From a virus, in the IMG/VR virus record IMGVR_UViG_3300044911_002321, positions 6,388-70,387 of that record: a stretch of 64,000 nucleotides of DNA; one strand, written 5' to 3'. Under the pieces are notes generated by a model. That model did no database searches, was not told the DNA's origin, and saw only the letters and a list, made by a program, of their open reading frames with translations. Position 1 is the stretch's first letter. Every line of letters starts with the position of its first letter. The position numbers and the translations under genes were made by a program. Positions 3,041-20,153 of this stretch are shown here, in pieces.

Positions 3041-3079
3041 CCTGGGACTTACACCACACTAAATGTGTGGATGCCCAGG
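3041..3079 (-). ncRNA. Family C structured leader element
   Basis: CCUGGG-CAU-CCACAC(AUUUA)GUGUGG-UGUAAGU-CCCAGG. Confidence 0.75.
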
Positions 3080-3344: not shown

Positions 3345-3550
3345 GGTAAAAGGATGAATACCGTGTTATAGAAGGGTAAATACCGTCTTATTATCTTAGA
3401 TATAGGGTTTCATACGTTGTTAAAAAAGTGTATTAAACCTGGTGTCTAACGGATGAATAGCAGCTTATCCATACAACTTTCTAGAAAGGTATGAAACCCT
3501 ATAGAGGGTTAGATAAGACTGTATTCACTGTTGAATAAGATGGTATTGAC
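3345..3550. repeat. Palindromic iteron element, copy 1 (candidate origin or protein-binding site)
   Basis: Perfect inverted repeat TATAGGGTTTCATAC at 3401-3415 and 3489-3503, flanked by two pairs of inward-facing AATACCGTCTTAT-like boxes; near copy at 53366-53570. Confidence 0.85.
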
Positions 3551-3751
3551 GGTTTCCCCCGTCTTCCCCATGTACATGTGTACTATTCCTTGGTACAAGT
3601 GGAGATATCTTTGGTACGTGTGTACTAGATATAGATATGAATGAAGGATATCCCTGGTACATACCCACTAGTTAGAGGTACATACCAGGGATGGGTAGGT
3701 ATTAATACTTAATATTGTCTGGCAACAAAGAATTGCCAATACATGCCAATA

Positions 3752-4117
3752 CTATAAACTAGACGGATAACCAGGGAGCATTTGATTAAGACTTGGTGCA
3801 TATGTTTTGAAATAATATCTTTCTGCTTCTGCAAGGATTGAAGAAGCTACTCCTATATCAAACGTTTCTAAAACTTCATACTCAAATAAAAACATAGTCA
3901 TTTGAAATACTTCTTTCAAAGAAAAGGTTTGGTTTAGGATGTTTTGCTTGCAAAGTGATAGTCTCCATTGCGGTGAATTACAAAAGCGATGATAATAAGT
4001 AAATCGTAAGCGTAGATTAGAAGTAGCTCCAATGTATTCTTCCTCGTCTTTATAAATGATTTTATAAATACCAGGAAGTTTAGGCGCTGTTTTAAATGAC
4101 AAAGCTGTGTAGTACAT
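3752..4117 (-). CDS. GIY-YIG endonuclease (homing-type)
   Basis: GIY(x9)YIG..SNLRLR and AERYY motifs; AT-rich relative to flanks. Confidence 0.8.
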   Translation of the reverse strand: MYYTALSFKTAPKLPGIYKIIYKDEEEYIGATSNLRLRFTYYHRFCNSPQWRLSLCKQNILNQTFSLKEVFQMTMFLFEYEVLETFDIGVASSILAEAERYYFKTYAPSLNQMLPGYPSSL

Positions 4118-4988: not shown

Positions 4989-5031
4989 CCCTGGGACTTA
5001 CACACCGTACTTACGTCGGTGCTGCCCAGGG
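4989..5031 (-). ncRNA. Family C structured leader element
   Basis: CCCUGGG-CAG-CACC...GGUG-UGUAAGU-CCCAGGG. Confidence 0.75.
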
Positions 5032-5285: not shown

Positions 5286-5339
5286 CATGGGACTTACACC
5301 ACTGTTATTGAGAAGAGTTCTCAATTGTGGATGCCCATG
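5286..5339 (-). ncRNA. Family C structured leader element
   Basis: CAUGGG-CAU-CCAC...GUGG-UGUAAGU-CCCAUG with an extended inner hairpin. Confidence 0.75.
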
Positions 5340-5730: not shown

Positions 5731-5769
5731 ACTAGGACTTACACCACACATTGTGTGTGGATGCCTAGT
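5731..5769 (-). ncRNA. Family C structured leader element
   Basis: ACUAGG/CCUAGU outer stem is a compensatory change from CUGGG/CCCAG. Confidence 0.75.
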
Positions 5770-6723: not shown

Positions 6724-6772
6724 CCAGGATGTTGAGTCCTGGTGGGAAGGGCCGAAGCCCCTCCAATCAGGA
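6724..6772 (-). ncRNA. Family B long-hairpin element with alternative CAGG pairing
   Basis: UCCUG...CCAGGA-CUCAACA-UCCUGG with a GGGC-UUCG-GCCC apex. Confidence 0.6.
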
Positions 6773-6773
6773 G

Positions 6774-7013
6774 TCAATCCTCATGCCTGCGTTCCCAACG
6801 AAGCAGATCCCTGTTGAGATCTACTTTGCGTTGGAGTACCACGCAGAATGGGACTAGGTCTTGGAACTGGGCTAACCCATCTTGCCATTGGAAGAAGAGA
6901 TCGAGAGCAGCTTGACGCTGTTCTTCAATCTCTGCATCAATGACAGGGGAGTCTCTGCGAGCCAATAAACGTGCGTCTTGGGTCAGCAGTTGTTCAACAG
7001 CTTTAGGAGTCAT
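6774..7013 (-). CDS. Hypothetical protein
   Basis: 79 aa ORF between family B elements. Confidence 0.7.
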   Translation of the reverse strand: MTPKAVEQLLTQDARLLARRDSPVIDAEIEEQRQAALDLFFQWQDGLAQFQDLVPFCVVLQRKVDLNRDLLRWERRHED

Positions 7014-7041
7014 GGTCTCCAGTTGGTGTCGTGTGGTGTGT

Positions 7042-7107
7042 TGCAGGTGTGACCTGCAGAAAACTCACCGGCAATACATGTGTACTACCGGGAGAGTTAT
7101 GTGCAGA
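7042..7107 (-). ncRNA. Family B long-hairpin element
   Basis: CUGCA..AACUC..CCGGUAGUAC/GUAUUGCCGG..GAGUU..UGCAGG-UCACA-CCUGCA. Confidence 0.6.
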
Positions 7108-7305
7108 TTACAGGTACTTACTGTGGATGCAGTAGTACGTGTCCCCTAGGAATCCTTGTGTACGTACAAGGTTGTGGTTTGGTCTTGCGTTGCAGTGTTC
7201 TTCGTAGTGTTGGTTGAGTAGCTTCTGTACTCCAGTAGATAGGAGTAAGCCACTACCAATGCCAATGACAAGAGCAACACAGGAGTCTTTGAATGAGTTG
7301 GACAT
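7108..7305 (-). CDS. Small membrane-anchored protein
   Basis: N-terminal hydrophobic helix and a Cys pair. Confidence 0.65.
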   Translation of the reverse strand: MSNSFKDSCVALVIGIGSGLLLSTGVQKLLNQHYEEHCNARPNHNLVRTQGFLGDTYYCIHSKYL

Positions 7306-7333
7306 AAGTTGTTAGTTGGATTTAGATGGTGTG

Positions 7334-7717
7334 TCAGAAGTCCAGGTAGTCTTCTTCCTCAGGTTGAGACGATGCATCAACAGCCTTAGGCCTTGGTGCT
7401 GCACCGATAGTGGCACGTACTCCTGTGAGTTTGATCTCAGGGTACTTGAGTGCCACAAGTTGACCATCCTTCTGGTAGTGCGTCTTGATAGTGCTGATGC
7501 GTACACTCCACTGCGTGAGGATGAGTTGATGGCCTGCGACTAAGCTGCCCTTGTTAAATGCCGCAAGCAATCCATTGCTATTCGTAAACCGCAAGCGGCA
7601 CGAACCGCCGAATGGATCGTTGACTGCAATACTTGCAGCCAGGAAAACACTATTGTCTTCCCTGGACTTGAGCACCTTGAGGTCGGTGACATAGCGAATG
7701 ATGGTTGAGCTGAACAT
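7334..7717 (-). CDS. Putative single-stranded DNA-binding protein
   Basis: Beta-rich 127 aa protein ending in the acidic-aromatic tail EEEDYLDF. Confidence 0.4.
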   Translation of the reverse strand: MFSSTIIRYVTDLKVLKSREDNSVFLAASIAVNDPFGGSCRLRFTNSNGLLAAFNKGSLVAGHQLILTQWSVRISTIKTHYQKDGQLVALKYPEIKLTGVRATIGAAPRPKAVDASSQPEEEDYLDF

Positions 7718-7739
7718 GAGAATACTGTGGTGTTGACAA

Positions 7740-7810
7740 GCAGGATGTTGAGTCCTGCAGTAAACCCACCGACGTAGTACTGATGTACTGGTGGGAGGGC
7801 TTAGAGCAGG
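7740..7810 (-). ncRNA. Family B long-hairpin element
   Basis: CCUGC...CCACC..GGUGG...GCAGGA-CUCAACA-UCCUGC. Confidence 0.6.
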
Positions 7811-7812
7811 AA

Positions 7813-8046
7813 TCAGAATGCTACTGCATACATGATGTCTTGAAGCATGGTCATTGAGTAGTTGTAATACTCTCTCATCTCGTAGTAAAGCTCCTTGGTA
7901 CCTGTCGGCATCCCTGACATGAATGTCAGGGAATCAAGGTCTTCCCACTCGCCATCTTTGATCTTCTGGAAGTGAAGCATAGAGCTGTCACCTCCATTCC
8001 AGATGACGCGATGGAGATTATCAAACTCAGGCTTGTAGATCAACAT
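7813..8046 (-). CDS. Hypothetical protein (MLIYKPEF...)
   Basis: ATG about 17 nt downstream of a family A element. Confidence 0.7.
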   Translation of the reverse strand: MLIYKPEFDNLHRVIWNGGDSSMLHFQKIKDGEWEDLDSLTFMSGMPTGTKELYYEMREYYNYSMTMLQDIMYAVAF

Positions 8047-8062
8047 GGTGTTGTGTAGTAGA

Positions 8063-8138
8063 TGCCACGGGATTGTGGCAATAGTTGTGTGGGGCATTCG
8101 ATGCCCCGGCTCACGGCTGGTCAGAAGACCATCACAAC
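8063..8138 (-). ncRNA. Family A tRNA-like element plus UGCCAC hairpin
   Basis: GUUGUG/CACAAC closing stem, UGGUC/GACCA arm, GGGGC-AUCGAAU-GCCCC T-arm. Confidence 0.7.
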
Positions 8139-8315
8139 GTCGTCGGCCTCCATCATCTCCTGGAAGGACATGATCTGCACGTCATGCGTGCCTTGGATGC
8201 CGTCGTTTAACTCGGGTGAGTTAAGTTGGAAGTCCATTTGTGCAGCTTCGATAAGTGCTTCTTCCCACTGGAAGGAGAAGCCGTGCTGCACGCCGTCAAT
8301 CACGATGTAGTACAT
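8121..8315 (-). CDS. Small acidic hypothetical protein (MYYIVIDG...)
   Basis: ATG downstream of a family A element. Confidence 0.65.
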   Translation of the reverse strand: MYYIVIDGVQHGFSFQWEEALIEAAQMDFQLNSPELNDGIQGTHDVQIMSFQEMMEADDVVMVF

Positions 8316-8333
8316 GGTGTTGAGTTGAGTAGA

Positions 8334-8409
8334 TGCCACGGGATTGTGGCAATAACTGAGCAGGGGATTTGATCCCCCAGCATCACGCTCTACTTACGTA
8401 GGCTCAGCT
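8334..8409 (-). ncRNA. Family A tRNA-like element plus UGCCAC hairpin
   Basis: AGCUGAGC/GCUCAGUU stem, CUAC/GUAG and AGC/GCU arms, GGGGG-AUCAAAU-CCCCU T-arm. Confidence 0.7.
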
Positions 8410-8416
8410 AATAACT

Positions 8417-8599
8417 TCAGCCTCGACGGATCTGAAGGTTCCTGTCTGCTTTACAAGCAGCAGAAATCTGCTGAGGCGTTGCTGCCTCGCAGAAGTAATT
8501 CGGATCACCTCCGAAGAAATGATCCGTAACCAAAGTAACTTTGCCGTCGTTAGTACGACGGACAAAGAACAGGTTGTTCAGTTGCATGGATCTCTCCAT
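8417..8599 (-). CDS. Hypothetical protein
   Basis: ATG downstream of a family A element. Confidence 0.6.
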   Translation of the reverse strand: MERSMQLNNLFFVRRTNDGKVTLVTDHFFGGDPNYFCEAATPQQISAACKADRNLQIRRG

Positions 8600-8607
8600 G
8601 TGTGTGG

Positions 8608-8677
8608 TGCCCATCTCCACAGGGGGCAATAACTGGACCAGGGTTTGCACCTGGTCACCCGCTTAGACGGATCAGTT
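8608..8677 (-). ncRNA. Family A tRNA-like element plus UGCCC hairpin
   Basis: AACUG/CAGUU stem, CCG/CGG arm, GACCAGG-UGCAAAC-CCUGGUC T-arm. Confidence 0.7.
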
Positions 8678-8854
8678 GGTTGGATAGTTGTTAGCTGCGC
8701 ACCACGCAAGGTGGATGTCATGTGCCTCTACTGGCCACTCATGGTTGATGCATTGCTTTGCGGTCGCCTTATCCAACTGATGGATGGTGACCTGAGTACC
8801 AATGCCCATGATTGTGGCTGCGGCAATGACAATGGATGCGATGTGTTCGGTCAT
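8672..8854 (-). CDS. Small membrane-anchored protein (MTEHIASIVIAA...)
   Basis: N-terminal hydrophobic helix and C..H.W...H..WC motif. Confidence 0.65.
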   Translation of the reverse strand: MTEHIASIVIAAATIMGIGTQVTIHQLDKATAKQCINHEWPVEAHDIHLAWCAANNYPTN

Positions 8855-8871
8855 GGTTGGTGTGAAGTAAA

Positions 8872-8935
8872 TGCCACTGGATTGTGGCAATGCTGATGGG
8901 AGGACTTGCACCTCCCTGTCCGCTTACGGATCAGC
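8872..8935 (-). ncRNA. Family A tRNA-like element plus UGCCAC hairpin
   Basis: GCUGAU/AUCAGC stem, CCG-UAAG-CGG arm, GGGAGG-UGCAAGU-CCUCCC T-arm. Confidence 0.75.
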
Positions 8936-9116
8936 GCCCGCTATAGGTAACGCGGGAGTTGTTGCGTTGGTTGTAACGGATGACGTCGCCTGTGATGCGG
9001 TCGTTGTAACGGATGACGTCGCCAGTAATACGACGGTCGTTTGATTCGTGCCACTCTTGGGAAGCTGCCTGTGCGGCAGCAGAGAATGCACGTCCGAGGG
9101 ATGTACGGAAACCCAT
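8931..9116 (-). CDS. Small protein with an 11-aa tandem repeat (RITGDVIRYN core)
   Basis: Duplication with a 33-bp period at 8970-8990 and 9003-9023. Confidence 0.6.
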   Translation of the reverse strand: MGFRTSLGRAFSAAAQAASQEWHESNDRRITGDVIRYNDRITGDVIRYNQRNNSRVTYSGR

Positions 9117-9132
9117 GGTGTTAGGTAGTAGA

Positions 9133-9202
9133 TGCCACTGGATTGTGGCAATGACCAGAGCCAGGCATTGCACCTGGCTTGGGAGCTATGACTCACCTGG
9201 TC
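9133..9202 (-). ncRNA. Family A tRNA-like element plus UGCCAC hairpin
   Basis: GACCAG/CUGGUC stem, GAG/CUC arm, GCCAGG-UGCAAUG-CCUGGC T-arm. Confidence 0.7.
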
Positions 9203-9378
9203 TGTAGTTGACGCACGAGCTTGCGCCCTGCGTCTAAGCTGAGGAGTGTGGAGCGATGCCACTCTCCTGGGCATTGCGCCTTGAGGATCATCTTCGTGAC
9301 TCTCACGAGATTCTCCTCCTTGTTCACCTGGAACTTATAGACGGCTTCGTCTGTGGTCAGGGTGAAGTAGATGATCAT
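9193..9378 (-). CDS. First early-region gene, hypothetical (MIIYFTLT...)
   Basis: GAGGA Shine-Dalgarno upstream of ATG 9378. Confidence 0.65.
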   Translation of the reverse strand: MIIYFTLTTDEAVYKFQVNKEENLVRVTKMILKAQCPGEWHRSTLLSLDAGRKLVRQLQTR

Positions 9379-9421
9379 GATTGATCCTCTTGATCTGCGA
9401 CTGACGTGCGCAGAAGTAACG

Positions 9422-9446
9422 GCTGCGTTTAACGTCCAGCTTGACG
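9422..9446 (-). ncRNA. H-type pseudoknot leader element, copy 1 (CGUC-AA-GCUG-GACG-UUAAAC-G-CAGC)
   Basis: Crossing stems CGUC/GACG and GCUG/CAGC. Confidence 0.6.
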
Positions 9447-9619
9447 AATGACCCTTGGATCTATTGCTCACTCTTCTGTCTTGCTTGTGTTGAAACAGTG
9501 ACAATTACCTCGAGCTTCTCGATGAACTGTTCTGTATCTCCCGCAGTGACGCATAGCCGAAACCCGTTGCGCGCGAAGGGATCTCAGGGATTCGTACGCT
9601 GTCTGAAAGTGTTGCAGCC

Positions 9620-9640
9620 TGTGGAAAAACCTGTGGAAAA
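9620..9640 (-). promoter_or_regulatory. Two tandem cyanobacterial-type DnaA boxes (TTTTCCACA)
   Basis: TGTGGAAAA at 9620-9628 and 9632-9640 in the non-coding strand-switch region. Confidence 0.45.
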
Positions 9641-9850
9641 CTCGTGCATGCCCCCGCTCCGCTCCAATTACTTCTCTACCCTCCCACCGTTCTTTTTTTT
9701 CTATGCACATTCGCATTCCCACAGGTGTTGCAAGAACCGTCAGAAAAATATTTTCCCTATTTTGGGTATATAGGGGCCATTTTCACGAAAAATCGTACAC
9801 TATCAACAAAAAGTGTAGACGCTGCAAGGAGTTTGCCCAAGTTTTTAGAC

Positions 9851-9876
9851 AAAAAAGCCGGGGAAGCTACCCCGGC
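9851..9876 (-). terminator. Rho-independent terminator
   Basis: GCCGGGG-TAGCTT-CCCCGGC followed by T6 on the minus strand. Confidence 0.8.
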
Positions 9877-9927
9877 GTTAATTAAATTTACACATTTTCT
9901 AAATAATTAAAAAATTAAAATTCTAAT

Positions 9928-10149
9928 TTAAAATTCTGGACCGCTATTTTGACGTTTAAAGTTACCTGCCGCGACAAACGCACTTTTATATTTGTCTACA
10001 TCTGGTTTCTGACGTGCTAATTCCCGCTGCGCACCAGACGAAAACGTTTTAACAGTAATTGGATCAGCACCTGCATCCTCTAATTCTTTTGTTTTGTCCG
10101 CAATTGCCCTTAATGCAAGTGCACGTTGCGCCCTATCCGCAGGATCCAT
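9928..10149 (-). CDS. Hypothetical protein
   Basis: 73 aa ORF with TAGACT -10-like element upstream and a terminator downstream. Confidence 0.7.
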   Translation of the reverse strand: MDPADRAQRALALRAIADKTKELEDAGADPITVKTFSSGAQRELARQKPDVDKYKSAFVAAGNFKRQNSGPEF

Positions 10150-10256
10150 AGATTTCTTGGTACTTTCGCTGTATATAGTCTAACGTACGTTGTCATTTCT
10201 TGAATTTTGCACCTTAAAATACAGATATCATAAAAATATCAAGCGATAGAACGCAC

Positions 10257-13200
10257 ATGGCGGAATATTACGAAGAATCACGTAACGAAGGTCCAAATAT
10301 CTTAGGAATGGCGGGGCTTCTTGGCTTAGGTGCCCTCGCTGGTGCTGGTGGCTACTACGCATTACGTAACACCAAGGGAAAGAATGCGGCGGCAGAGGCA
10401 TTGACACGTGCTGCCCGTAGTGAACGCCCCCGTGGTGTACAAATGACTGACCTTGGCGCACGACGTACCGGTGATTTTGGACTCGTTGACATTCCACCGT
10501 CACGTTCTGCTCGTGTTACAGGTGATCGTGGTGTAACTCAATCGCCTATAACAAACGATGTTGTAACAAATTTACCGGAAGTCATTTCTTCTGCACCACA
10601 AGAACGAATGGTGCGTCGTCACGGACGTATGGTACCACTTTCTTCTGTACAACCTCGAGTTGCTCCACATGCACCGGAGCAATACTCCAATGTTCCACCG
10701 AGTGTGCCGCCAACTACACCTACTTCTGAACTGCGTTCCCAGGTGTACGCCAATGTAGCTGCCAAGCCTGCGTCGGAATTACCAAGGGTATATAAACCCC
10801 AAGGTGGTACGACCGAAGAAATGCTTGTTACTGATCCCAATACAGGTGAGATTTACCGCAGGGGTGGCGGTGGCGCATATTTTGCGAGTAAAGCGGCAGA
10901 ATTAGCAGGCAACATTGTAACGGACCTACCAGAAGTCGTTGCTTCCGCCCCACGGGAACGAATGGTGCGTCGTCAAGGACGCATGGTACCGCTTTCTTCT
11001 TTACAGCAAAAGCAACCAGCCATCCCAAGTGCAACCGTTGATCTCAATACCTTAGAAGCACAGCCTACCGCTCCCGTTCAAACAACTACACGTTCTCAGC
11101 CACAAGGTCAGTTCCTTGCGTTCCATCAAGAACTAGGCAGAAAAGGTTATAGCTTAATGGGGAATCCTTACGATAATGAACTCATTCTTTTGACCGATAG
11201 TGGAAAAGAGTTATATCTTAAAAACCCACTTTCTTCTCATCCAAAAGAATCTATTCGCCAAGTAGCGTTACAAGAAGAGCAAATTGGTCGTCAAGCCCTG
11301 GCGAATGCAGGGTTTACTTTGGAGCAAGCAGAAGAAGCACGTCTTGAACAATTCCAACGTGCTTTTGGCGGCAACCCTGATTTACAAAACCAAGCAACAA
11401 GCGCAGTCGAATCTGGTGCATCGCAACAAGAAGGACGTGTATGGCAACAGCTCTCACGTAACGAAGATCTTGATAAAACACAGATTGCGCAATTAGAAGC
11501 ACAAGCTGATGCGGACTATAAAGCAATGTTGGGATCTAATCCCAGTGAATGGTCTGGCGTTGAAGGTGACGTCGCAATCAATAAGGTAGCTCAAGCTTTA
11601 CCTGATGGACTTCCCATCGATCAGGCTGAAGGTATTGGCTACGACCTGCGCACTGGAGAACGCTTTAAGTTTGGTGGTGCGCGTCCAGCACGTACGGGCC
11701 TTGCTCCTGGCGGTACTATCGAATTACAAGCAGCCCCTGGCGCAGACCTAGGACAGAGTTCGGCAGCACGGTTCCTTCAGCAACGACGGGAAAAGCTGAT
11801 GGAAGATGCCGGTACTTCCGGACGTTTAGAAACCCAATTAGCCAAGGCATTTGGTCCTGAAGCATGGCGCGAAGATCCTAAAGCTACAAGGCGTCGCAAC
11901 GCACTTAAACTTGGCGCGGCAGGTAATGAGCAGTTTTTTGAAAACTTAAACGAAGGAACCGTAACAATTGCCGGAGAACAATTCCCTGTATCGTCCTTGA
12001 AAGAAGGTGTATACATGGAAGATACCGCACAAAATCTTGTTGACAAAGTCAAAGGCTATAAAAATTGGCTAGGTAATATTCGGTTAGAAGAAACACGTAA
12101 TCAAATTGGTTTAGCAAATGAGCTAGACAACTTGATGGCGCAAGATGCTTTACTTCAAGCCGATGTCGCAAATATGAACGAAGGACGCAGATCTTTCTCG
12201 AGCCCACAAGAACGTGATGCATACATTACGGCAAGCCGAGGTCGTGAAGTTGCTTTAGATCTACAAGACGAGCTTGACGCACGGGTTAACGAGACGTTGC
12301 GTAACTTCGAGATGAGTGAGCGACGTCTCCTTGGCGCTGAGAAAGCAACTGCACGTAACATCCGAAGGGCTGCTGTTCCTCAGAAACTAATGGGTGGCGT
12401 AGAGGAAGGTATTGTTGTTCGTCCTATCCTTACGGCACCAGACAACATGGTGGTTGAAGAAGGTGAGCTTTCTAATATTGAACGTGGGCGTCCTGTTGGT
12501 CAATACATTTCTCAAGAGCAGCTTGAGATTGTTCCAGGAGGCCTTCTATCTGGTGGCCGCGCAAAATCTGTTCCCAACATTGGCTCAGATCTTGGTATTG
12601 ATCCTGAAACTGGTGATCGCATTACGTTACCTAACGTTAATCAAGACACTGGTGAGACCCTCGTTCAGAAGCTTGCCGGTAAGCGTATGGGCGCTGATGT
12701 AAACGTGCGTGGCCGCGGTGGCGTCGCAGGAATGGAAACCAAAGCTTCCATTGGCATCTACGGTCCAGAGCTTGCCGAGTATGGCACTTCTGCAATGACC
12801 AAACAAGGCGAGTATACGCCTCAAGCTAGTCGTCCACCTAGCGCAACTGACTCCTCGGTAGGTGTATATAAAGTTCGTAAGTATGTTGTAGATGACGAAA
12901 ATCCTGAAGGCAAAGCCGTATTCTTTAGTTCTCCCAGTTCTTACGTAGAACCCGAAGCGTATAAGTATTCGCAAGCCATTACTCCACAAGGGTTGCAGTC
13001 TATTGACTTGAGTCGGGCAGTTCAAGGTATTTACGCAAGCGATCCACGTGAGCTGGCAGAAGCCAAAGTAAAAGTTGGCTTGAGTGGTATGGCACAACTT
13101 GCCGGTAAGCAATTACCTCCATCGGCAACCAGTAGCCGTTTTGGTGCCACAGGCCCGTCAACTCCTTTAGAAAGAACTATTCAAGAACGAACTCCAGAAG

Positions 13201-13724
13201 GACAATTTAAGACTTATCAGGTTTCTAATCGTCCAGTAGCTCCGACCGAAGAACCGATTGCAAGTCCCCTGGAACCAACACAGCTTAGCTTCCGTTCTGA
13301 TGTTGTTCCGCCTATTGCACGTACACGCGTATCCGAAGCAGATGCTTATGCAAATCAACTTGCAAACTATATGGCTAAAATGCAAAGAGGACAAACAGAA
13401 GCAACAAGTTCTCCCGCAGTCATTCAACCTAATTTAGTTGTAGCCGAAGAGTATCAATTACCTCTGGCTCTTTCCGCAGGTGCACCTACACCTCAGATGC
13501 AAGGTCCTATGCGTGCTACTCCACAACTTAGAGGACTTGAAGCACCTATACAATATGTAGAGACGTATCAACCAACGTTGTTTGCAGCACCTACTGAAAC
13601 CCTGGCACTTCAAAATCCGGTCGCAAACTTAACCTTGCGTGAAAGAAATGCAGAAAATCGTTTACAACGGATTAGAGAAGACATTGCAAACAGGCAACAA
13701 CGTCGTCTTGCAGGAGGTATCTAA
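10257..13724 (+). CDS. Large hypothetical protein (1155 aa), possibly an internal virion/ejection protein
   Basis: Long ORF with an N-terminal hydrophobic Gly/Ala segment and a 28-aa internal duplication. Confidence 0.8.
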   Translation: MAEYYEESRNEGPNILGMAGLLGLGALAGAGGYYALRNTKGKNAAAEALTRAARSERPRGVQMTDLGARRTGDFGLVDIPPSRSARVTGDRGVTQSPITNDVVTNLPEVISSAPQERMVRRHGRMVPLSSVQPRVAPHAPEQYSNVPPSVPPTTPTSELRSQVYANVAAKPASELPRVYKPQGGTTEEMLVTDPNTGEIYRRGGGGAYFASKAAELAGNIVTDLPEVVASAPRERMVRRQGRMVPLSSLQQKQPAIPSATVDLNTLEAQPTAPVQTTTRSQPQGQFLAFHQELGRKGYSLMGNPYDNELILLTDSGKELYLKNPLSSHPKESIRQVALQEEQIGRQALANAGFTLEQAEEARLEQFQRAFGGNPDLQNQATSAVESGASQQEGRVWQQLSRNEDLDKTQIAQLEAQADADYKAMLGSNPSEWSGVEGDVAINKVAQALPDGLPIDQAEGIGYDLRTGERFKFGGARPARTGLAPGGTIELQAAPGADLGQSSAARFLQQRREKLMEDAGTSGRLETQLAKAFGPEAWREDPKATRRRNALKLGAAGNEQFFENLNEGTVTIAGEQFPVSSLKEGVYMEDTAQNLVDKVKGYKNWLGNIRLEETRNQIGLANELDNLMAQDALLQADVANMNEGRRSFSSPQERDAYITASRGREVALDLQDELDARVNETLRNFEMSERRLLGAEKATARNIRRAAVPQKLMGGVEEGIVVRPILTAPDNMVVEEGELSNIERGRPVGQYISQEQLEIVPGGLLSGGRAKSVPNIGSDLGIDPETGDRITLPNVNQDTGETLVQKLAGKRMGADVNVRGRGGVAGMETKASIGIYGPELAEYGTSAMTKQGEYTPQASRPPSATDSSVGVYKVRKYVVDDENPEGKAVFFSSPSSYVEPEAYKYSQAITPQGLQSIDLSRAVQGIYASDPRELAEAKVKVGLSGMAQLAGKQLPPSATSSRFGATGPSTPLERTIQERTPEGQFKTYQVSNRPVAPTEEPIASPLEPTQLSFRSDVVPPIARTRVSEADAYANQLANYMAKMQRGQTEATSSPAVIQPNLVVAEEYQLPLALSAGAPTPQMQGPMRATPQLRGLEAPIQYVETYQPTLFAAPTETLALQNPVANLTLRERNAENRLQRIREDIANRQQRRLAGGI

Positions 13725-19214: not shown

Positions 19215-20153
19215 ATGTCACAAAAAGGAAATAAGGGTAAAGACAACGCTCCCAACAAGAGTGTCAACACTCCAAGGAAGGATAGTCCTTCCAATCAAAC
19301 CAACAATACTCCAAAAAAAGACAATACTCCTAGCAGGACTGACAATACTTCAAGGAAAGATAGTACTCCTGACAAAGGTAAGAATGCAGCAGTTGCCTCA
19401 AAAACATACAAAGAAAAAGAAAAAGATAAAGCAAAAGTTCCGTCTGTGATGATAGAAGGAACGCGATATGACGCGCCAAATAAGCAAATCACACCAAAAA
19501 TCTTTAAAGAAATTGTTGCTGCAAACCCAACTATTTCCCTGCCAGACTTAAGGGACGATATAAAAGATAAAGGAAGAACGCTTACACCAAAGGCCAAAGA
19601 TTATTTTACTAAATTTAAAGACACTTTAAATCAATCCACGGCGGCCAGTAGCAATGCAGGTGACGCTAATGAAGAGGTATCATTAGATTACGATGACGAT
19701 GGCAACGTAAATGCACCCCGTGGAGCTGATCCATTTGAATGGCAAGCTTACGGTAATATCGCACTTGGAGAGCTTCAAAAAGAAACTTCAGTAGAAAGTG
19801 AAGCAGTTCGAGGGAAGTATTTAGCAGAAGTTGCCAGGATCCAAAGAGGACAAAGTGACTATGCACAAGATGCAGAGACAAAACGTTCTTTTTATTCGGA
19901 CGACAGTGAAGAGCGCTGGCGTAAATTTGCCAGTACTGCCGACAAAGAAAAGGCTATTGAAGTACAAAAAATTGTTGCAGCCGGTTTAAGAGATGTGGCT
20001 GAGATTGAAGGTAGTTATGGTCTTAAAGGAATTCAAGCAAAAGGTGAAGCAGATAAAGCAGTTATGGGTATTAGGGCTCAAGCAGATAAGGATATTTCTC
20101 GAATGGATAACACTTCAAGAATGTATAGCCTGCTGGGCTTAGCCTTTGGTTAA
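19215..20153 (+). CDS. Hypothetical protein
   Basis: 312 aa; AGGAG RBS; N-terminal DNTP repeats. Confidence 0.75.
   Translation: MSQKGNKGKDNAPNKSVNTPRKDSPSNQTNNTPKKDNTPSRTDNTSRKDSTPDKGKNAAVASKTYKEKEKDKAKVPSVMIEGTRYDAPNKQITPKIFKEIVAANPTISLPDLRDDIKDKGRTLTPKAKDYFTKFKDTLNQSTAASSNAGDANEEVSLDYDDDGNVNAPRGADPFEWQAYGNIALGELQKETSVESEAVRGKYLAEVARIQRGQSDYAQDAETKRSFYSDDSEERWRKFASTADKEKAIEVQKIVAAGLRDVAEIEGSYGLKGIQAKGEADKAVMGIRAQADKDISRMDNTSRMYSLLGLAFG

What the first reader, a model, noticed from the sequence alone, without database searches (positions are those of the whole stretch)
8063..9202. Five miniature tRNA-like structures punctuate consecutive early genes, each followed by an AUUGCC hairpin (family A)
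Seen on the minus strand: 44-58 nt units at 9153-9202, 8892-8935, 8631-8677, 8354-8409 and 8084-8138. They share little primary sequence but have the same fold: a closing acceptor-like stem, one or two short arms, and a 5-7 bp arm with a 7-nt T-loop-like loop (UGCAAUG, UGCAAGU, UGCAAAC, AUCAAAU, AUCGAAU) next to the closing stem, as in tRNA. All are followed by AUUGCC, which starts a hairpin (UGCCAC-AAUCC(C/A)-GUGGCA in four copies), and then by the next ATG. There is no anticodon arm or CCA. Known: RNase P and RNase Z recognise the T-arm/acceptor stack, and tRNA punctuation processes mitochondrial transcripts. Inference: the phage uses tRNA mimics so host tRNA-processing enzymes cut its earliest transcript into monocistronic mRNAs with 5' hairpins; excised mimics might also decoy tRNA-targeting defences.
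Basis: partly seen in the sequence, partly recalled or inferred. Interest (0 to 1): 0.82.

Follow-up and report, generated by a model that had tools for sequence, protein, structure and literature searches.

The report
Mini-tRNA mimics between cyanophage genes
Five small RNA structures that copy the acceptor/T-arm half of a tRNA sit exactly at the boundaries of consecutive small genes of a freshwater cyanophage, belong to a virus-only family found in over a hundred related viral contigs and in cultured marine cyanophages, and most likely mark where the long transcript is cut or protected.

Summary
All five minus-strand units fold as described (z -3.0 to -3.9). Each is followed by AUUGCC plus a hairpin; after unit 3 it is an H-type pseudoknot.

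The window is an S-EIV1-like Synechococcus phage. Related viral contigs gave 87 unique units.
- **Covariation:** both main helices covary strongly (96.1% paired, 0 of 500 shuffles reach the score).
- **Loop:** the 7-nt loop reads xxCRA in 52 of 52 units found with no rule on loop sequence.
- **Ruler:** closing stem plus T stem totals 11-13 bp, mostly 12, the tRNA acceptor/T length, whatever the split.
- **Virus-only:** 0 of 121 bacterial matches to the arm motif carry a full unit, against 95 of 116 viral matches.
- **Not a known family:** Rfam and ARAGORN find nothing.
- **Cultured phages:** units occur in S-EIV1 and in the T7-like cyanophages S-TIP37, S-SBP1 and S-CBP2.

Processing by tRNA enzymes is plausible but untested. 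The upstream stop codon lies inside the unit in 74 of 86 cases, so an RNase P cut would remove it. I favour a 3'-side cut, by RNase Z or RNase E.

The parts
9153..9202 (-). Unit 1: closing stem GACCA/UGGUC, arm GAGUCAUAGCUC, T-like arm with loop UGCAAUG. The upstream ORF's stop UGA (9193-9195) lies inside the unit.
   Evidence: class-I model R1 E 7e-5
9133..9152 (-). AUUGCC plus hairpin UGCCAC-AAUCCA-GUGGCA; next ATG at 9114-9116
8892..8935 (-). Unit 2: closing stem GCUGAU/AUCAGC (6 bp), arm CCGUAAGCGG, T-like arm GGGAGG-UGCAAGU-CCUCCC (6 bp). Stop UGA 8931-8933 lies in the closing stem.
   Evidence: R1 E 3.9e-8
8872..8891 (-). AUUGCC plus hairpin UGCCAC-AAUCCA-GUGGCA; next ATG at 8852-8854
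8631..8677 (-). Unit 3 (class I): closing stem AACUG/CAGUU (5 bp), conserved arm AUCCGU-CUAA-GCGGGU, T-like arm GACCAGG-UGCAAAC-CCUGGUC (7 bp). Stop UGA 8672-8674 lies in the closing stem.
   Evidence: R1 E 2.1e-25; covariation
8601..8630 (-). AUUGCC plus an H-type pseudoknot module: stem UGCCC/GGGCA, with loop UGUGG pairing to CCACA after the stem. GGAG follows, and the likely start is ATG 8585-8587.
   Evidence: In relatives, 36 of 42 unique regex matches have both stems fully paired, with seven complementary stem-2 types. The MFE fold alone is not significant (z -0.08).
8354..8409 (-). Unit 4 (three arms): closing stem GCUGAGC/GCUCAGU, arms CUAC-GUAA-GUAG and GCGUGAUGC, T-like arm GGGGG-AUCAAAU-CCCCU. 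The upstream stop UGA 8417-8419 lies 8 nt before the unit.
   Evidence: R1 E 0.63 only
8334..8353 (-). AUUGCC plus hairpin UGCCAC-AAUCCC-GUGGCA; next ATG at 8313-8315
8084..8138 (-). Unit 5 (three arms): closing stem GUUGUG/CACAAC, arms GGUC-UUCU-GACC (which holds stop UGA 8121-8123) and GCCGUGAGC, T-like arm GGGGC-AUCGAAU-GCCCC.
   Evidence: not found by R1
8063..8082 (-). AUUGCC plus hairpin UGCCAC-AAUCCC-GUGGCA, after one spacer U at 8083; next ATG at 8044-8046

Best explanation
The five units are cis-acting RNA elements in a polycistronic transcript of small, probably early, genes read by the host RNA polymerase. Each mimics the acceptor-stem/T-arm minihelix and elbow of a tRNA.

I think they work as punctuation. 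A host tRNA 3'-processing enzyme, most likely RNase Z, or alternatively RNase E acting on the conserved A-U-U linker, cuts just after the closing stem. The upstream mRNA then ends in a compact tRNA-like fold that blocks 3' exonucleases. The downstream mRNA begins 1-2 nt before a stable hairpin or pseudoknot that protects its 5' end.

Shown: the structure, its tRNA-like dimensions, its conservation, its position, and its restriction to viruses. Inferred: that it is cut, by which enzyme, and where.
For: 1. Conserved RNA structure.
- I selected 94 distinct class-I units only by the 15 fixed bases of the first arm plus the xxCRA loop motif, with no pairing rule.
- In that set 96.1% of cells pair. 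The T-like stem is 98.9% paired with 6 of 7 pairs compensatory. The closing stem is 93.8% paired with 3 of 5 compensatory.
- 0 of 500 shuffles reach the covariation score, and sliding the partner by one column drops pairing to about 50%.
- An earlier 26-sequence set gives the same picture.

2. tRNA-like geometry.
- Of 54 unique units upstream of the exact hairpin, 52 fit a 7-nt-loop arm plus closing stem, with no rule on the loop sequence.
- All 52 loops read xxC(A/G)A. Closing stem plus T stem is 11 bp (13 units), 12 bp (32) or 13 bp (7). The loop-to-AUUGCC distance is 12 nt (39) or 13 nt (13).
- Of 87 unique units anchored on [ACU]UU[GA]CC, the sum is 12 (52), 11 (24) or 13 (11). The split runs from 4+7 through 5+7, 6+6 and 8+4 to 9+4 (closing + T).
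- Twelve base pairs is the 7+5 acceptor/T stack of tRNA (established knowledge).
- Some units carry a canonical GGGGUUCGAUUCCCC arm.

3. RNase Z-compatible 3' context.
- The base after the closing stem is A in 58 of 87 units, and UU follows at the next two or three positions in all 87. There is never CC.
- Passages in PMC7479834 say three things. RNase Z cuts directly after the discriminator. Cytidines there suppress it. In the B. subtilis complex it contacts the T arm and acceptor stem, while the D and anticodon arms are dispensable.
- Cyanobacteria encode single RNase Z, RNase E and RNase J genes plus RNase P (PMC10989914 passages).

4. Position.
- The upstream stop codon is inside the unit or at most 11 nt before it in 82 of 86 units.
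- What follows is always a structured module and then a start codon.

5. Interchangeability.
- The same downstream gene (MYYI...) is preceded by class I, class IV or three-arm units in different contigs.

6. Not a promoter or terminator.
- No sigma-70-like promoter lies at any junction. Only one weak terminator-like call overlaps a hairpin.

7. Virus-only.
- 0 of 121 bacterial or archaeal matches to the arm motif carry the unit, against 95 of 116 viral matches.

8. Same layout in T7-like cyanophages.
- It occurs at the left-end genes of S-TIP37 and S-SBP1, and before the S-SBP1 capsid gene.
- In coliphage T7 these are places where RNase III sites process mRNA (recalled knowledge).
Against: - No RNA 5' or 3' ends were seen. 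Only Logan contigs of relatives were available, and no places where molecules begin or end were reported.
- The linker between the closing stem and the next hairpin is only 1-3 nt, which is short for RNase E.
- RNase Z is inhibited by long 5' extensions in the archaeal enzymes studied in PMC7479834. Here the 5' extension is a whole mRNA, unless RNase P cuts first.
- An RNase P cut would leave the upstream ORF without its stop codon in 74 of 86 units. The units also show no U(-1) or G1-C72 preference.
- AUUGCC starts at position 73 in about three quarters of units and at position 74 in the rest, so the register is not strict.
- The Rfam tRNA model does not score these units even at E<=10.
Confidence: 0.45

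Rival explanations
1. Structure-only stabiliser or insulator. The units are not recognised as tRNA by any enzyme. They are compact three-way junctions that stop 3' exonucleases after cleavage elsewhere, and they keep neighbouring cistrons from misfolding with each other.
For: - Stable folds at every junction.
- Other junctions of the same operon carry unrelated structured elements such as family B, which suggests a general need for structure at junctions.
- No cleavage evidence exists.
Against: - A generic roadblock does not need an xxCRA 7-nt loop in 52 of 52 units.
- It does not need a constant 11-13 bp sum of two helices whose individual lengths vary from 4 to 9.
- It does not need a fixed A/U-UU junction.
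Confidence: 0.25
2. The units are excised, or act in place, as tRNA decoys or sponges. They would titrate a host tRNA-binding factor or a tRNA-targeting defence nuclease, or serve as small trans-acting RNAs.
For: - tRNA-like elbow and minihelix.
- Several copies per genome.
- Restricted to viruses.
Against: - There is no anticodon arm, which is the usual target of anticodon nucleases.
- The strict placement at stop codons, followed by a start region, points to a cis role.
- There are no data on excised 40-58 nt RNAs.
Confidence: 0.08
3. DNA-level cassette boundaries. The conserved unit-plus-AUUGCC junctions act mainly as short homologies that let small early genes be shuffled between phages, like the PeSL cassettes of T4-type phages (recalled from memory, not read here).
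For: - The same gene is preceded by different unit classes.
- The same unit class is followed by different downstream modules and genes.
- Near-identical unit pieces occur in unrelated lineages: 37 nt at 97% identity in the T7-like phage S-TIP37.
Against: - Compensatory changes keep RNA helices intact while the sequence drifts. Homology-driven recombination would not select for that.
- Shuffling is more likely a by-product of the conserved junctions.
Confidence: 0.07
4. Terminator-promoter cassettes. The unit stops transcription, and TTGCCA in AUUGCCA is a -35 box for a new transcript for each gene.
For: - TTGCCA, TTACCA and TTGCCC resemble TTGACA.
- A TAC motif often follows the hairpin.
Against: - The scan finds no sigma-70-like promoter at any of the five junctions.
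- The candidate -10 boxes lack the T at position 6 and sit 15 nt from the -35-like box (read).
- The pseudoknot-type modules have no -10 candidate at all.
- No U-run follows the units.
- Neither G000 nor the complete S-EIV1 genome encodes a T7-like RNA polymerase, while the positive control S-TIP37 does.
Confidence: 0.05
5. Decayed tRNA genes, or attP-type tRNA fragments, without a function of their own.
For: - Some units carry a canonical GGUUCGAUUCC T arm.
- T7-like cyanophages do carry tRNA-Leu-derived attP sites (PMC8776855 passages).
Against: - Strong purifying selection on pairing.
- Five in tandem, each overlapping an ORF end.
- Those attP sites are perfect matches to host tRNA-Leu and lie downstream of the integrase gene, whereas 0 of 121 bacterial matches to the class-I arm motif carry a unit.
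Confidence: 0.03

Closest known systems
t-elements of plant mitochondria (Forner et al. 2007, PMC1920247; passages read)
   Same: Non-canonical tRNA-like folds with a T arm, embedded in mRNAs at gene ends. They are proposed, and partly shown, to direct RNase Z and RNase P cuts that make mRNA 5' and 3' ends. Some lie so that the mRNA 3' end falls inside the reading frame.
   Different: Those are organellar, few per genome, about 74 nt, and defined by the GGTTCRANYCC motif. Their ends and CCA tails were mapped experimentally. The phage units are 39-58 nt, and most have UGCAA or AUCRA loops. They stand in tandem at consecutive junctions, each is followed by a conserved AUUGCC hairpin or pseudoknot, and no ends are mapped.
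tRNA punctuation of animal mitochondrial transcripts (recalled knowledge)
   Same: tRNA-shaped structures between coding regions of a polycistronic RNA act as cutting marks for tRNA-processing enzymes.
   Different: There the punctuating elements are real tRNA genes that function in translation. Here there is no anticodon arm, and ARAGORN and Rfam do not recognise the units.
RNase III sites between early genes of coliphage T7 (recalled knowledge)
   Same: Structured RNA between early cistrons of a phage transcript made by the host polymerase. Cutting leaves a protective 3' structure on the upstream mRNA. T7-like cyanophages carry the units at the equivalent left-end positions.
   Different: T7 sites are long, imperfect double-stranded hairpins. 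These are three- or four-way junctions with a T-loop-like arm and a 12-bp stack.
Acceptor/T-arm minihelix substrates of RNase P, RNase Z and the CCA-adding enzyme (partly recalled; RNase Z contacts from PMC7479834)
   Same: A 12-bp coaxial stack closed by a 7-nt T-loop, followed by an unpaired discriminator-like base.
   Different: The units carry one or two extra small arms where the D and anticodon arms would be. They are embedded in an mRNA with a long 5' extension and a structured 3' trailer.
PeSL cassettes of T4-type phages (recalled, not read here)
   Same: Short repeated regulatory modules flank small early genes and are associated with gene shuffling.
   Different: PeSLs consist of an early promoter plus a simple stem-loop. 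No promoter-like site is found at these junctions.

Membership tests
tRNA gene (Rfam RF00005 / ARAGORN) | Cloverleaf with an anticodon arm that scores on tRNA models | tested here: not met
   ARAGORN finds 0 genes in the window, and none at the units in 9 related loci. There is no tRNA hit at Rfam gathering score or at E<=10 in 7900-9400 and L020:1-2400.
tRNA-like acceptor/T minihelix mimic (functional class, not a curated family) | 7-nt T-loop of form xxCRA closed by a G-C pair | tested here: met
   52 of 52 fitted units have C at loop position 3, A or G at position 4 and A at position 5, with no sequence rule applied. The closing G-C pair holds in 92 of 94 units.
tRNA-like acceptor/T minihelix mimic (functional class, not a curated family) | Acceptor-like stem plus T stem form about 12 bp, with the T arm adjacent to the 3' strand | tested here: met
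   The sum is 11, 12 or 13 bp in 13, 32 and 7 of 52 units, and in 24, 52 and 11 of 87 units. The gap between the two helices is 0-1 nt.
tRNA-like acceptor/T minihelix mimic (functional class, not a curated family) | Recognised and cut by RNase P, RNase Z or the CCA-adding enzyme | not testable with these tools
   Only assembled RNA contigs were available.
Plant mitochondrial t-elements | GGTTCRANYCC pseudouridine-arm motif (PMC1920247) | tested here: inconclusive
   Loops of the UUCGAUU, UUCGACU or UUCAA type occur in about 10 of 87 unique units. The rest are UGCAA (about 51) or AUCRA/GUCRA (26).
Plant mitochondrial t-elements | mRNA ends coincide with the element's ends; non-templated C/A tails | not testable with these tools
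   No end-resolved RNA data.
T7-type RNase III processing site | Long (about 20 bp or more) double-stranded hairpin, usually with an internal loop | tested here: not met
   The folds are multibranch with helices of 4-9 bp.
PeSL / terminator-promoter cassette | Sigma-70-type promoter within the repeat | tested here: not met
   The 3 promoter-like sites in 7700-10300 all lie at 9779-9934, and none is at a junction.
Intrinsic terminator | GC-rich hairpin followed by a U-run | tested here: not met
   None of the units is called. One weak call falls on the hairpin at 8889-8872.
attP-type tRNA fragment | Exact match to a host tRNA gene, next to an integrase gene (PMC8776855) | tested here: not met
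   For class I only: 0 of 121 matches to the arm motif in 185,579 species' genomes carry a unit. Classes II-IV were not tested against host genomes.
Any Rfam 15 family | Score at or above the gathering cut-off | tested here: not met
   0 matches in the 64-kb window.

The most novel reading that the evidence does not exclude
Cyanophages of at least two unrelated lineages (S-EIV1-like and T7-like) use a private family of 39-58 nt mini-tRNA mimics as true 'tRNA punctuation'.

Host RNase P and RNase Z would excise them from polycistronic transcripts. This would yield downstream mRNAs capped by a 5' hairpin or pseudoknot, and upstream mRNAs that lose their stop codon. Those upstream mRNAs would be cleared through trans-translation, which would time the shut-off of early genes. 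The excised CCA-tailed mini-tRNAs would accumulate as decoys for tRNA-binding host factors.

This would be the first tRNA-punctuation system outside organelles.
Probability: 0.15. Interest if true: 0.88.

Novelty: new variant of a known kind. Interest (0 to 1): 0.72.

Why it matters
- **New setting for a known principle.** tRNA-shaped cutting marks are textbook for mitochondria and known as t-elements in plant mitochondria. I found no description of them in phage or bacterial operons. The full-text searches were: cyanophage + tRNA-like + RNase P (1 unrelated review); cyanophage + 'tRNA-like structure' (2 papers, neither describing this); cyanopodovirus + tRNA-like (0); tRNA-like + phage + RNase Z + mRNA processing, and a second phage/RNase P query.
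- **Directly testable.** The family occurs in more than 100 viral contigs and in cultured, genetically tractable cyanophage-host pairs such as S-TIP37 with WH8109, for which a phage engineering method exists (PMC8776855). The mechanism can be tested at the bench now.
- **What a positive result would show.** It would show how phages that depend on the host polymerase, in hosts that rely on RNase E and RNase J, shape and protect their mRNAs.
- **Practical and structural use.** It would give a compact, sequence-flexible processing module for cyanobacterial synthetic biology. The constant 12-bp sum with a sliding junction is also a clean natural experiment on how tRNA-processing enzymes measure their substrates.

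Tried and rejected
- **First automated stem count.** It used forced end pairing and unconstrained MFE. It was noisy because the MFE closes the 7-nt loop with extra A-U pairs. I replaced it with explicit descriptors.
- **L022.** This is a GC-rich chance match to the 20-mer with no fold. One L038 unit has a stem mismatch. Both are counted as the 2 misses among the 54 units.
- **RNA evidence.** The look-up of sequencing runs gave 15 runs, all held as Logan contigs with shares of 0.15 or less. I laid 4 of them (X1, X6, X7, X9) at 85% likeness. Contigs of relatives cover and sometimes bridge the units, for example X6 record 13 over unit 2 and X6 record 10 over unit 5. No table of molecule ends was produced. 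Contig breaks fall at the conserved units, as expected where strains diverge. I draw no conclusion on processing or expression from this.
- **Class-I covariance model R1.** It finds units 3, 2 and 1 (E 2e-25, 4e-8, 7e-5), unit 4 only at E 0.63, and not unit 5. The five are one architecture, not one sequence family. I built no models for the other classes.
- **Class II alignment A3.** It has 14 sequences, and two rows are misaligned by MAFFT. Compensatory changes are visible by eye (GUUGUG/CACAAC against GUUGAG/CUCAAC; GGGGC/GCCCC against GGGAG/CUCCC). I did not count them.
- **Row slip in A2.** One row (L044) was extended on the wrong side by one base. This affects one cell.
- **Other checks.** PHROGs found nothing for the six small proteins. 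A T7-like RNA polymerase is absent from G000 and S-EIV1 and present in the S-TIP37 control. The megablast search of 7000-12000 against phages found nothing.
- **Closed or unavailable.** The supplements of PMC10690425, which predicted 8,495 candidate structured RNAs in IMG/VR, could not be opened, so this motif may already be listed there without a name. The S-EIV1 genome paper (Chenard et al. 2015) is recalled, not read.
- **Not run.** R-scape, and host-genome checks for classes II-IV.
Full report
**What the window is**

The window is bases 6388-70387 of a 70,387-b IMG/VR virus record. Its large terminase is 81.6% identical in protein to that of Synechococcus phage S-EIV1, a phage from a high-arctic lake. 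The next best phage hits are below 25% identity.

The minus strand from about 9500 down to 1 carries some 25 small ORFs, separated by short structured spacers. The finding concerns the first five junctions.

A terminator-like hairpin with a U-run lies at 9876-9857. A weak promoter-like site lies at 9806-9779, just upstream of the first gene. That this block is 'early' is inferred from gene order only.

**Checking the observation**

- All five units fold alone into a closing stem, one or two small arms, and a GC-rich arm next to the 3' strand of the closing stem. Their z-scores are -2.98 to -3.87. The fold survives when flanks are added.
- Four units are followed by the exact 20-mer ATTGCCACAATCC(C/A)GTGGCA. 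That is 4 matches, all on the minus strand, against 0.03 expected.
- Unit 3 is followed by AUUGCC with a different continuation.
- A descriptor scan of the whole genome finds the five units plus seven scattered sites. Shuffles give 0-6 sites (mean 2.25 over 20). A single hit is weak evidence. Five in tandem, each at a stop codon and each followed by AUUGCC, are not chance.
- ARAGORN and Rfam report nothing.

**Relatives**

An exact-pattern scan of IMG/VR for the 20-mer returned 44 loci. These hold 73 occurrences and 54 distinct upstream units. One locus, L022, is a chance match.

I then relaxed the anchor to [ACU]UU[GA]CC and required a 7-nt xxCRA loop 11-14 nt upstream, with paired flanks. 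This gave 140 occurrences and 87 distinct units. They fall into several architectures:
- **Class I:** a conserved AUCCGU-NNAA-GCGGG arm plus a 6-7 bp T-like arm. Window units 2 and 3 belong here.
- **Three-arm class:** arms GGUC-AUCU-GACC and GGCGUGA(U)GCC. Window units 4 and 5 belong here.
- **Class III:** an arm GAGU-AUAG-CUC. Window unit 1 belongs here.
- **Short class:** a canonical GGGGUUCGAUUCCCC arm.

**Selection on structure**

To avoid circularity, I scanned IMG/VR for the 15 fixed bases of the class-I arm alone.
- All viral loci held so far gave 161 matches, 3 of them truncated, and 108 distinct 47-mers.
- Of the 108, 15 had fewer than 15 of 18 pairs in the fixed register. Fourteen of those are plainly unrelated sequences, and one has a 1-nt insertion.
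- I kept the 94 that have the xxCRA motif at the loop position, which dropped 14. I aligned them without any gaps and counted pairs.
- Overall, 96.1% of cells pair. The T-like stem is 98.9% paired with compensatory changes at 6 of 7 pairs. The closing stem is 93.8% paired with 3 of 5 compensatory.
- The covariation score is 0.427, against 0.124 +/- 0.007 in shuffles, and 0 of 500 shuffles reach it. Sliding the partner by one column drops pairing to 49-51%.
- The first arm is sequence-invariant, in part by selection.
- A 26-sequence set chosen earlier gives the same result.

As a negative control, I ran the same 15-base pattern over one genome for each of 185,579 prokaryote species. It gave 121 matches in the loci returned, and none has a T-like arm and closing stem. 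In the new viral loci, 95 of 116 matches do.

**How tRNA-like the units are**

- **Loop.** With no rule on loop sequence, 52 of 54 units fit, and every loop reads xxC(A/G)A: UGCAAAC 16, AUCGAAU 8, UGCAAUC 6, AUCAAAU 6, UGCAAUG 5, UUCGAUU 3, and seven others. This is the T-loop core.
- **Ruler.** Closing-stem plus T-stem length is 12 bp in 32 units, 11 in 13 and 13 in 7. Across the 87 units it is 12 in 52, 11 in 24 and 13 in 11. The partition slides from 4+7 and 5+7 through 6+6 and 7+5 to 8+4 and 9+4 (closing + T). A constant sum with a movable junction is what one expects if something measures the coaxial acceptor/T stack, which is 7+5 bp in tRNA.
- **After the stack.** The base after the stack is A in 58 of 87 units, and UU follows in all of them.
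- **What is missing.** There is no anticodon arm and no CCA. The tRNA covariance model does not score the units. They are mimics, not tRNAs.

**Position relative to genes**

Of the 87 units, 86 have at least 120 nt of open frame running into them.
- The stop codon lies within the 5' strand of the closing stem in 15.
- It straddles the end of that strand in 30.
- It lies in the middle arms in 29.
- It lies 1-11 nt upstream of the unit in 8.
- It is ambiguous in 4.
- The stop is UGA in 70, UAA in 15 and UAG in 1.

In the window, the stops of ORFs 1, 2, 3 and 5 are inside their units, and that of ORF 4 is 8 nt upstream.

This matters for the mechanism. A cut at the 5' end of the closing stem, which is the RNase P position, would detach the stop codon. 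Plant mitochondria tolerate exactly that at nad6 and ccmC (PMC1920247). A bacterium would send such mRNAs to trans-translation (established knowledge). There is also no preference for U at -1 (C 31, U 29, A 24, G 3) or for a G1-C72 pair (19 of 87).

**What follows the units**

The downstream module always begins (A/C)UU(G/A)CC. The UGCC or UACC pairs with a later GGCA or GGUA.
- In between are hairpins with different, covarying upper stems (UGCCAC..GUGGCA, GCCACAC..GUGUGGC, GCCACCC..GGGUGGC, GCCAACC..GGUUGGC and others).
- The alternative is an H-type pseudoknot. Four loop bases pair with the four bases just after the stem. There are seven complementary types: GCGG/CCGC 19, GCAG/CUGC 7, GUGG/CCAC 4, and four others. 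Both stems are fully paired in 36 of 42 distinct regex matches.
- Window unit 3 has the pseudoknot type (8601-8630). It is followed by GGAG and a start codon inside a small hairpin.
- The AUUGCC 'hairpin' is therefore itself a family of selected RNA structures, placed 1-3 nt after the tRNA-like stack.

**Beyond S-EIV1-like phages**

- S-EIV1 has two class-I units (R1 E 1e-24 and 4e-22; sequence).
- A blastn search of the region hit the marine T7-like cyanophage S-TIP37. There, units follow genes 1 and 2 at the left end of the genome.
- S-SBP1 has units after gp01 and gp02. A third closes a small unannotated ORF about 110 nt upstream of the major capsid gene.
- S-CBP2 and a Mediterranean fosmid also match.
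- S-TIP37 encodes a T7-type RNA polymerase, while G000 and S-EIV1 do not. The element is therefore independent of the transcription machinery.
- Different unit classes precede the same gene in different contigs. This suggests they are functionally equivalent and exchangeable.

**Interpretation**

The anatomy is a tRNA acceptor/T mimic ending at a conserved A-UU linker, followed immediately by a stable 5' structure of the next cistron. It sits where coliphage T7 has RNase III sites.

This is best explained as mRNA punctuation. A cut after the mimic would leave a nuclease-resistant 3' end upstream and a protected 5' end downstream.

- **RNase Z** is the most natural enzyme. It cuts after the discriminator and contacts the T arm and acceptor stem only. 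It is inhibited by C, not U, after the discriminator (PMC7479834). It is a single gene in cyanobacteria (PMC10989914).
- **The weak points** are the long 5' extension, the very short linker, and the complete lack of end-mapping data.
- **RNase E** acting at the AUU, or no specific cut at all with the unit working as a pure exonuclease block, remain serious alternatives.
- **Promoter or terminator cassettes, attP remnants and decayed tRNAs** are disfavoured.

**Novelty**

I found no paper describing tRNA-like elements at gene junctions in cyanophages or other phages. A large screen of IMG/VR for structured RNAs (PMC10690425) may contain this motif in its tables, which I could not open.

The closest described systems are plant mitochondrial t-elements and mitochondrial tRNA punctuation. 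I rate this a new variant of a known kind. The structure is well established and the mechanism is unproven.

Noticed in passing
window minus strand: 3042-3078, 5732-5768, 5287-5337, 4990-5031, 1838-1870; also L050 8024-8062 and 8724-8775 (S-EIV1): A second repeat family ('family B') stands before later genes of the same block. Its closing stem covaries (CCUGGG/CCCAGG, CUAGG/CCUAG, CAUGGG/CCCAUG). Inside are the conserved strands GCAUCC and GGUGUAAGUCC, around a variable inner hairpin. A CA-rich leader and an ATG follow. Fold z-scores are -2.4 to -4.5.
   Followed up: partly
window 8601-8630 (-) and 36 of 42 distinct regex matches in related loci: The module after unit 3 is an H-type pseudoknot with covariation in both stems. 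It is followed by GGAG and a start codon inside a small hairpin. It is a separate conserved RNA motif that matches no Rfam family.
   Followed up: partly
L271 1490-1600 (S-SBP1 19290-19400), and about 30 T7-like cyanophage records: A conserved non-coding sequence of about 55 nt lies upstream of the major capsid gene in many marine T7-like cyanophages. In S-SBP1 and several IMG/VR contigs a class-I unit directly precedes it. Its function (promoter, processing site) was not examined.
   Followed up: no
window 3755-4117 (-): An AT-rich insert in the small-gene block encodes a 121-aa GIY-YIG nuclease domain protein (Pfam PF01541, E 3.1e-6, above the cut-off). It is probably a homing endonuclease. 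About 450 b of AT-rich non-coding sequence with short repeats follows (3349-3468, 3572-3627).
   Followed up: partly
window 8960-9025 (-), inside ORF 2: A tandem 33-nt duplication at 88% identity encodes a repeated ITGDVIRYN peptide (family D14).
   Followed up: no
window 9062-9079 (-): The hairpin CUGCCGCACAGGCAGCUU inside ORF 2 matches part of the Rfam CRISPR-DR4 model. It scores 23.4 bits (gathering score 35) at E 0.031, and it is a single copy. It is probably chance.
   Followed up: no
window 7740-7765 and 6725-6745 (-): A third repeated hairpin, CAGGACUCAACAUCCUG, lies in two further junctions. In both it is preceded by another GC-rich hairpin (read).
   Followed up: no
window 9857-9876 and 9779-9806 (-): A terminator-like GC hairpin with a U-run is followed by the only promoter-like site on the minus strand of this region. 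This is a candidate start of the small-gene operon. These are consensus matches only.
   Followed up: no
window 10561-10651 and 10915-11005 (+): A 91-nt direct repeat at 84% identity lies inside the 1155-aa ORF (10257-13724), which has no Pfam match.
   Followed up: no
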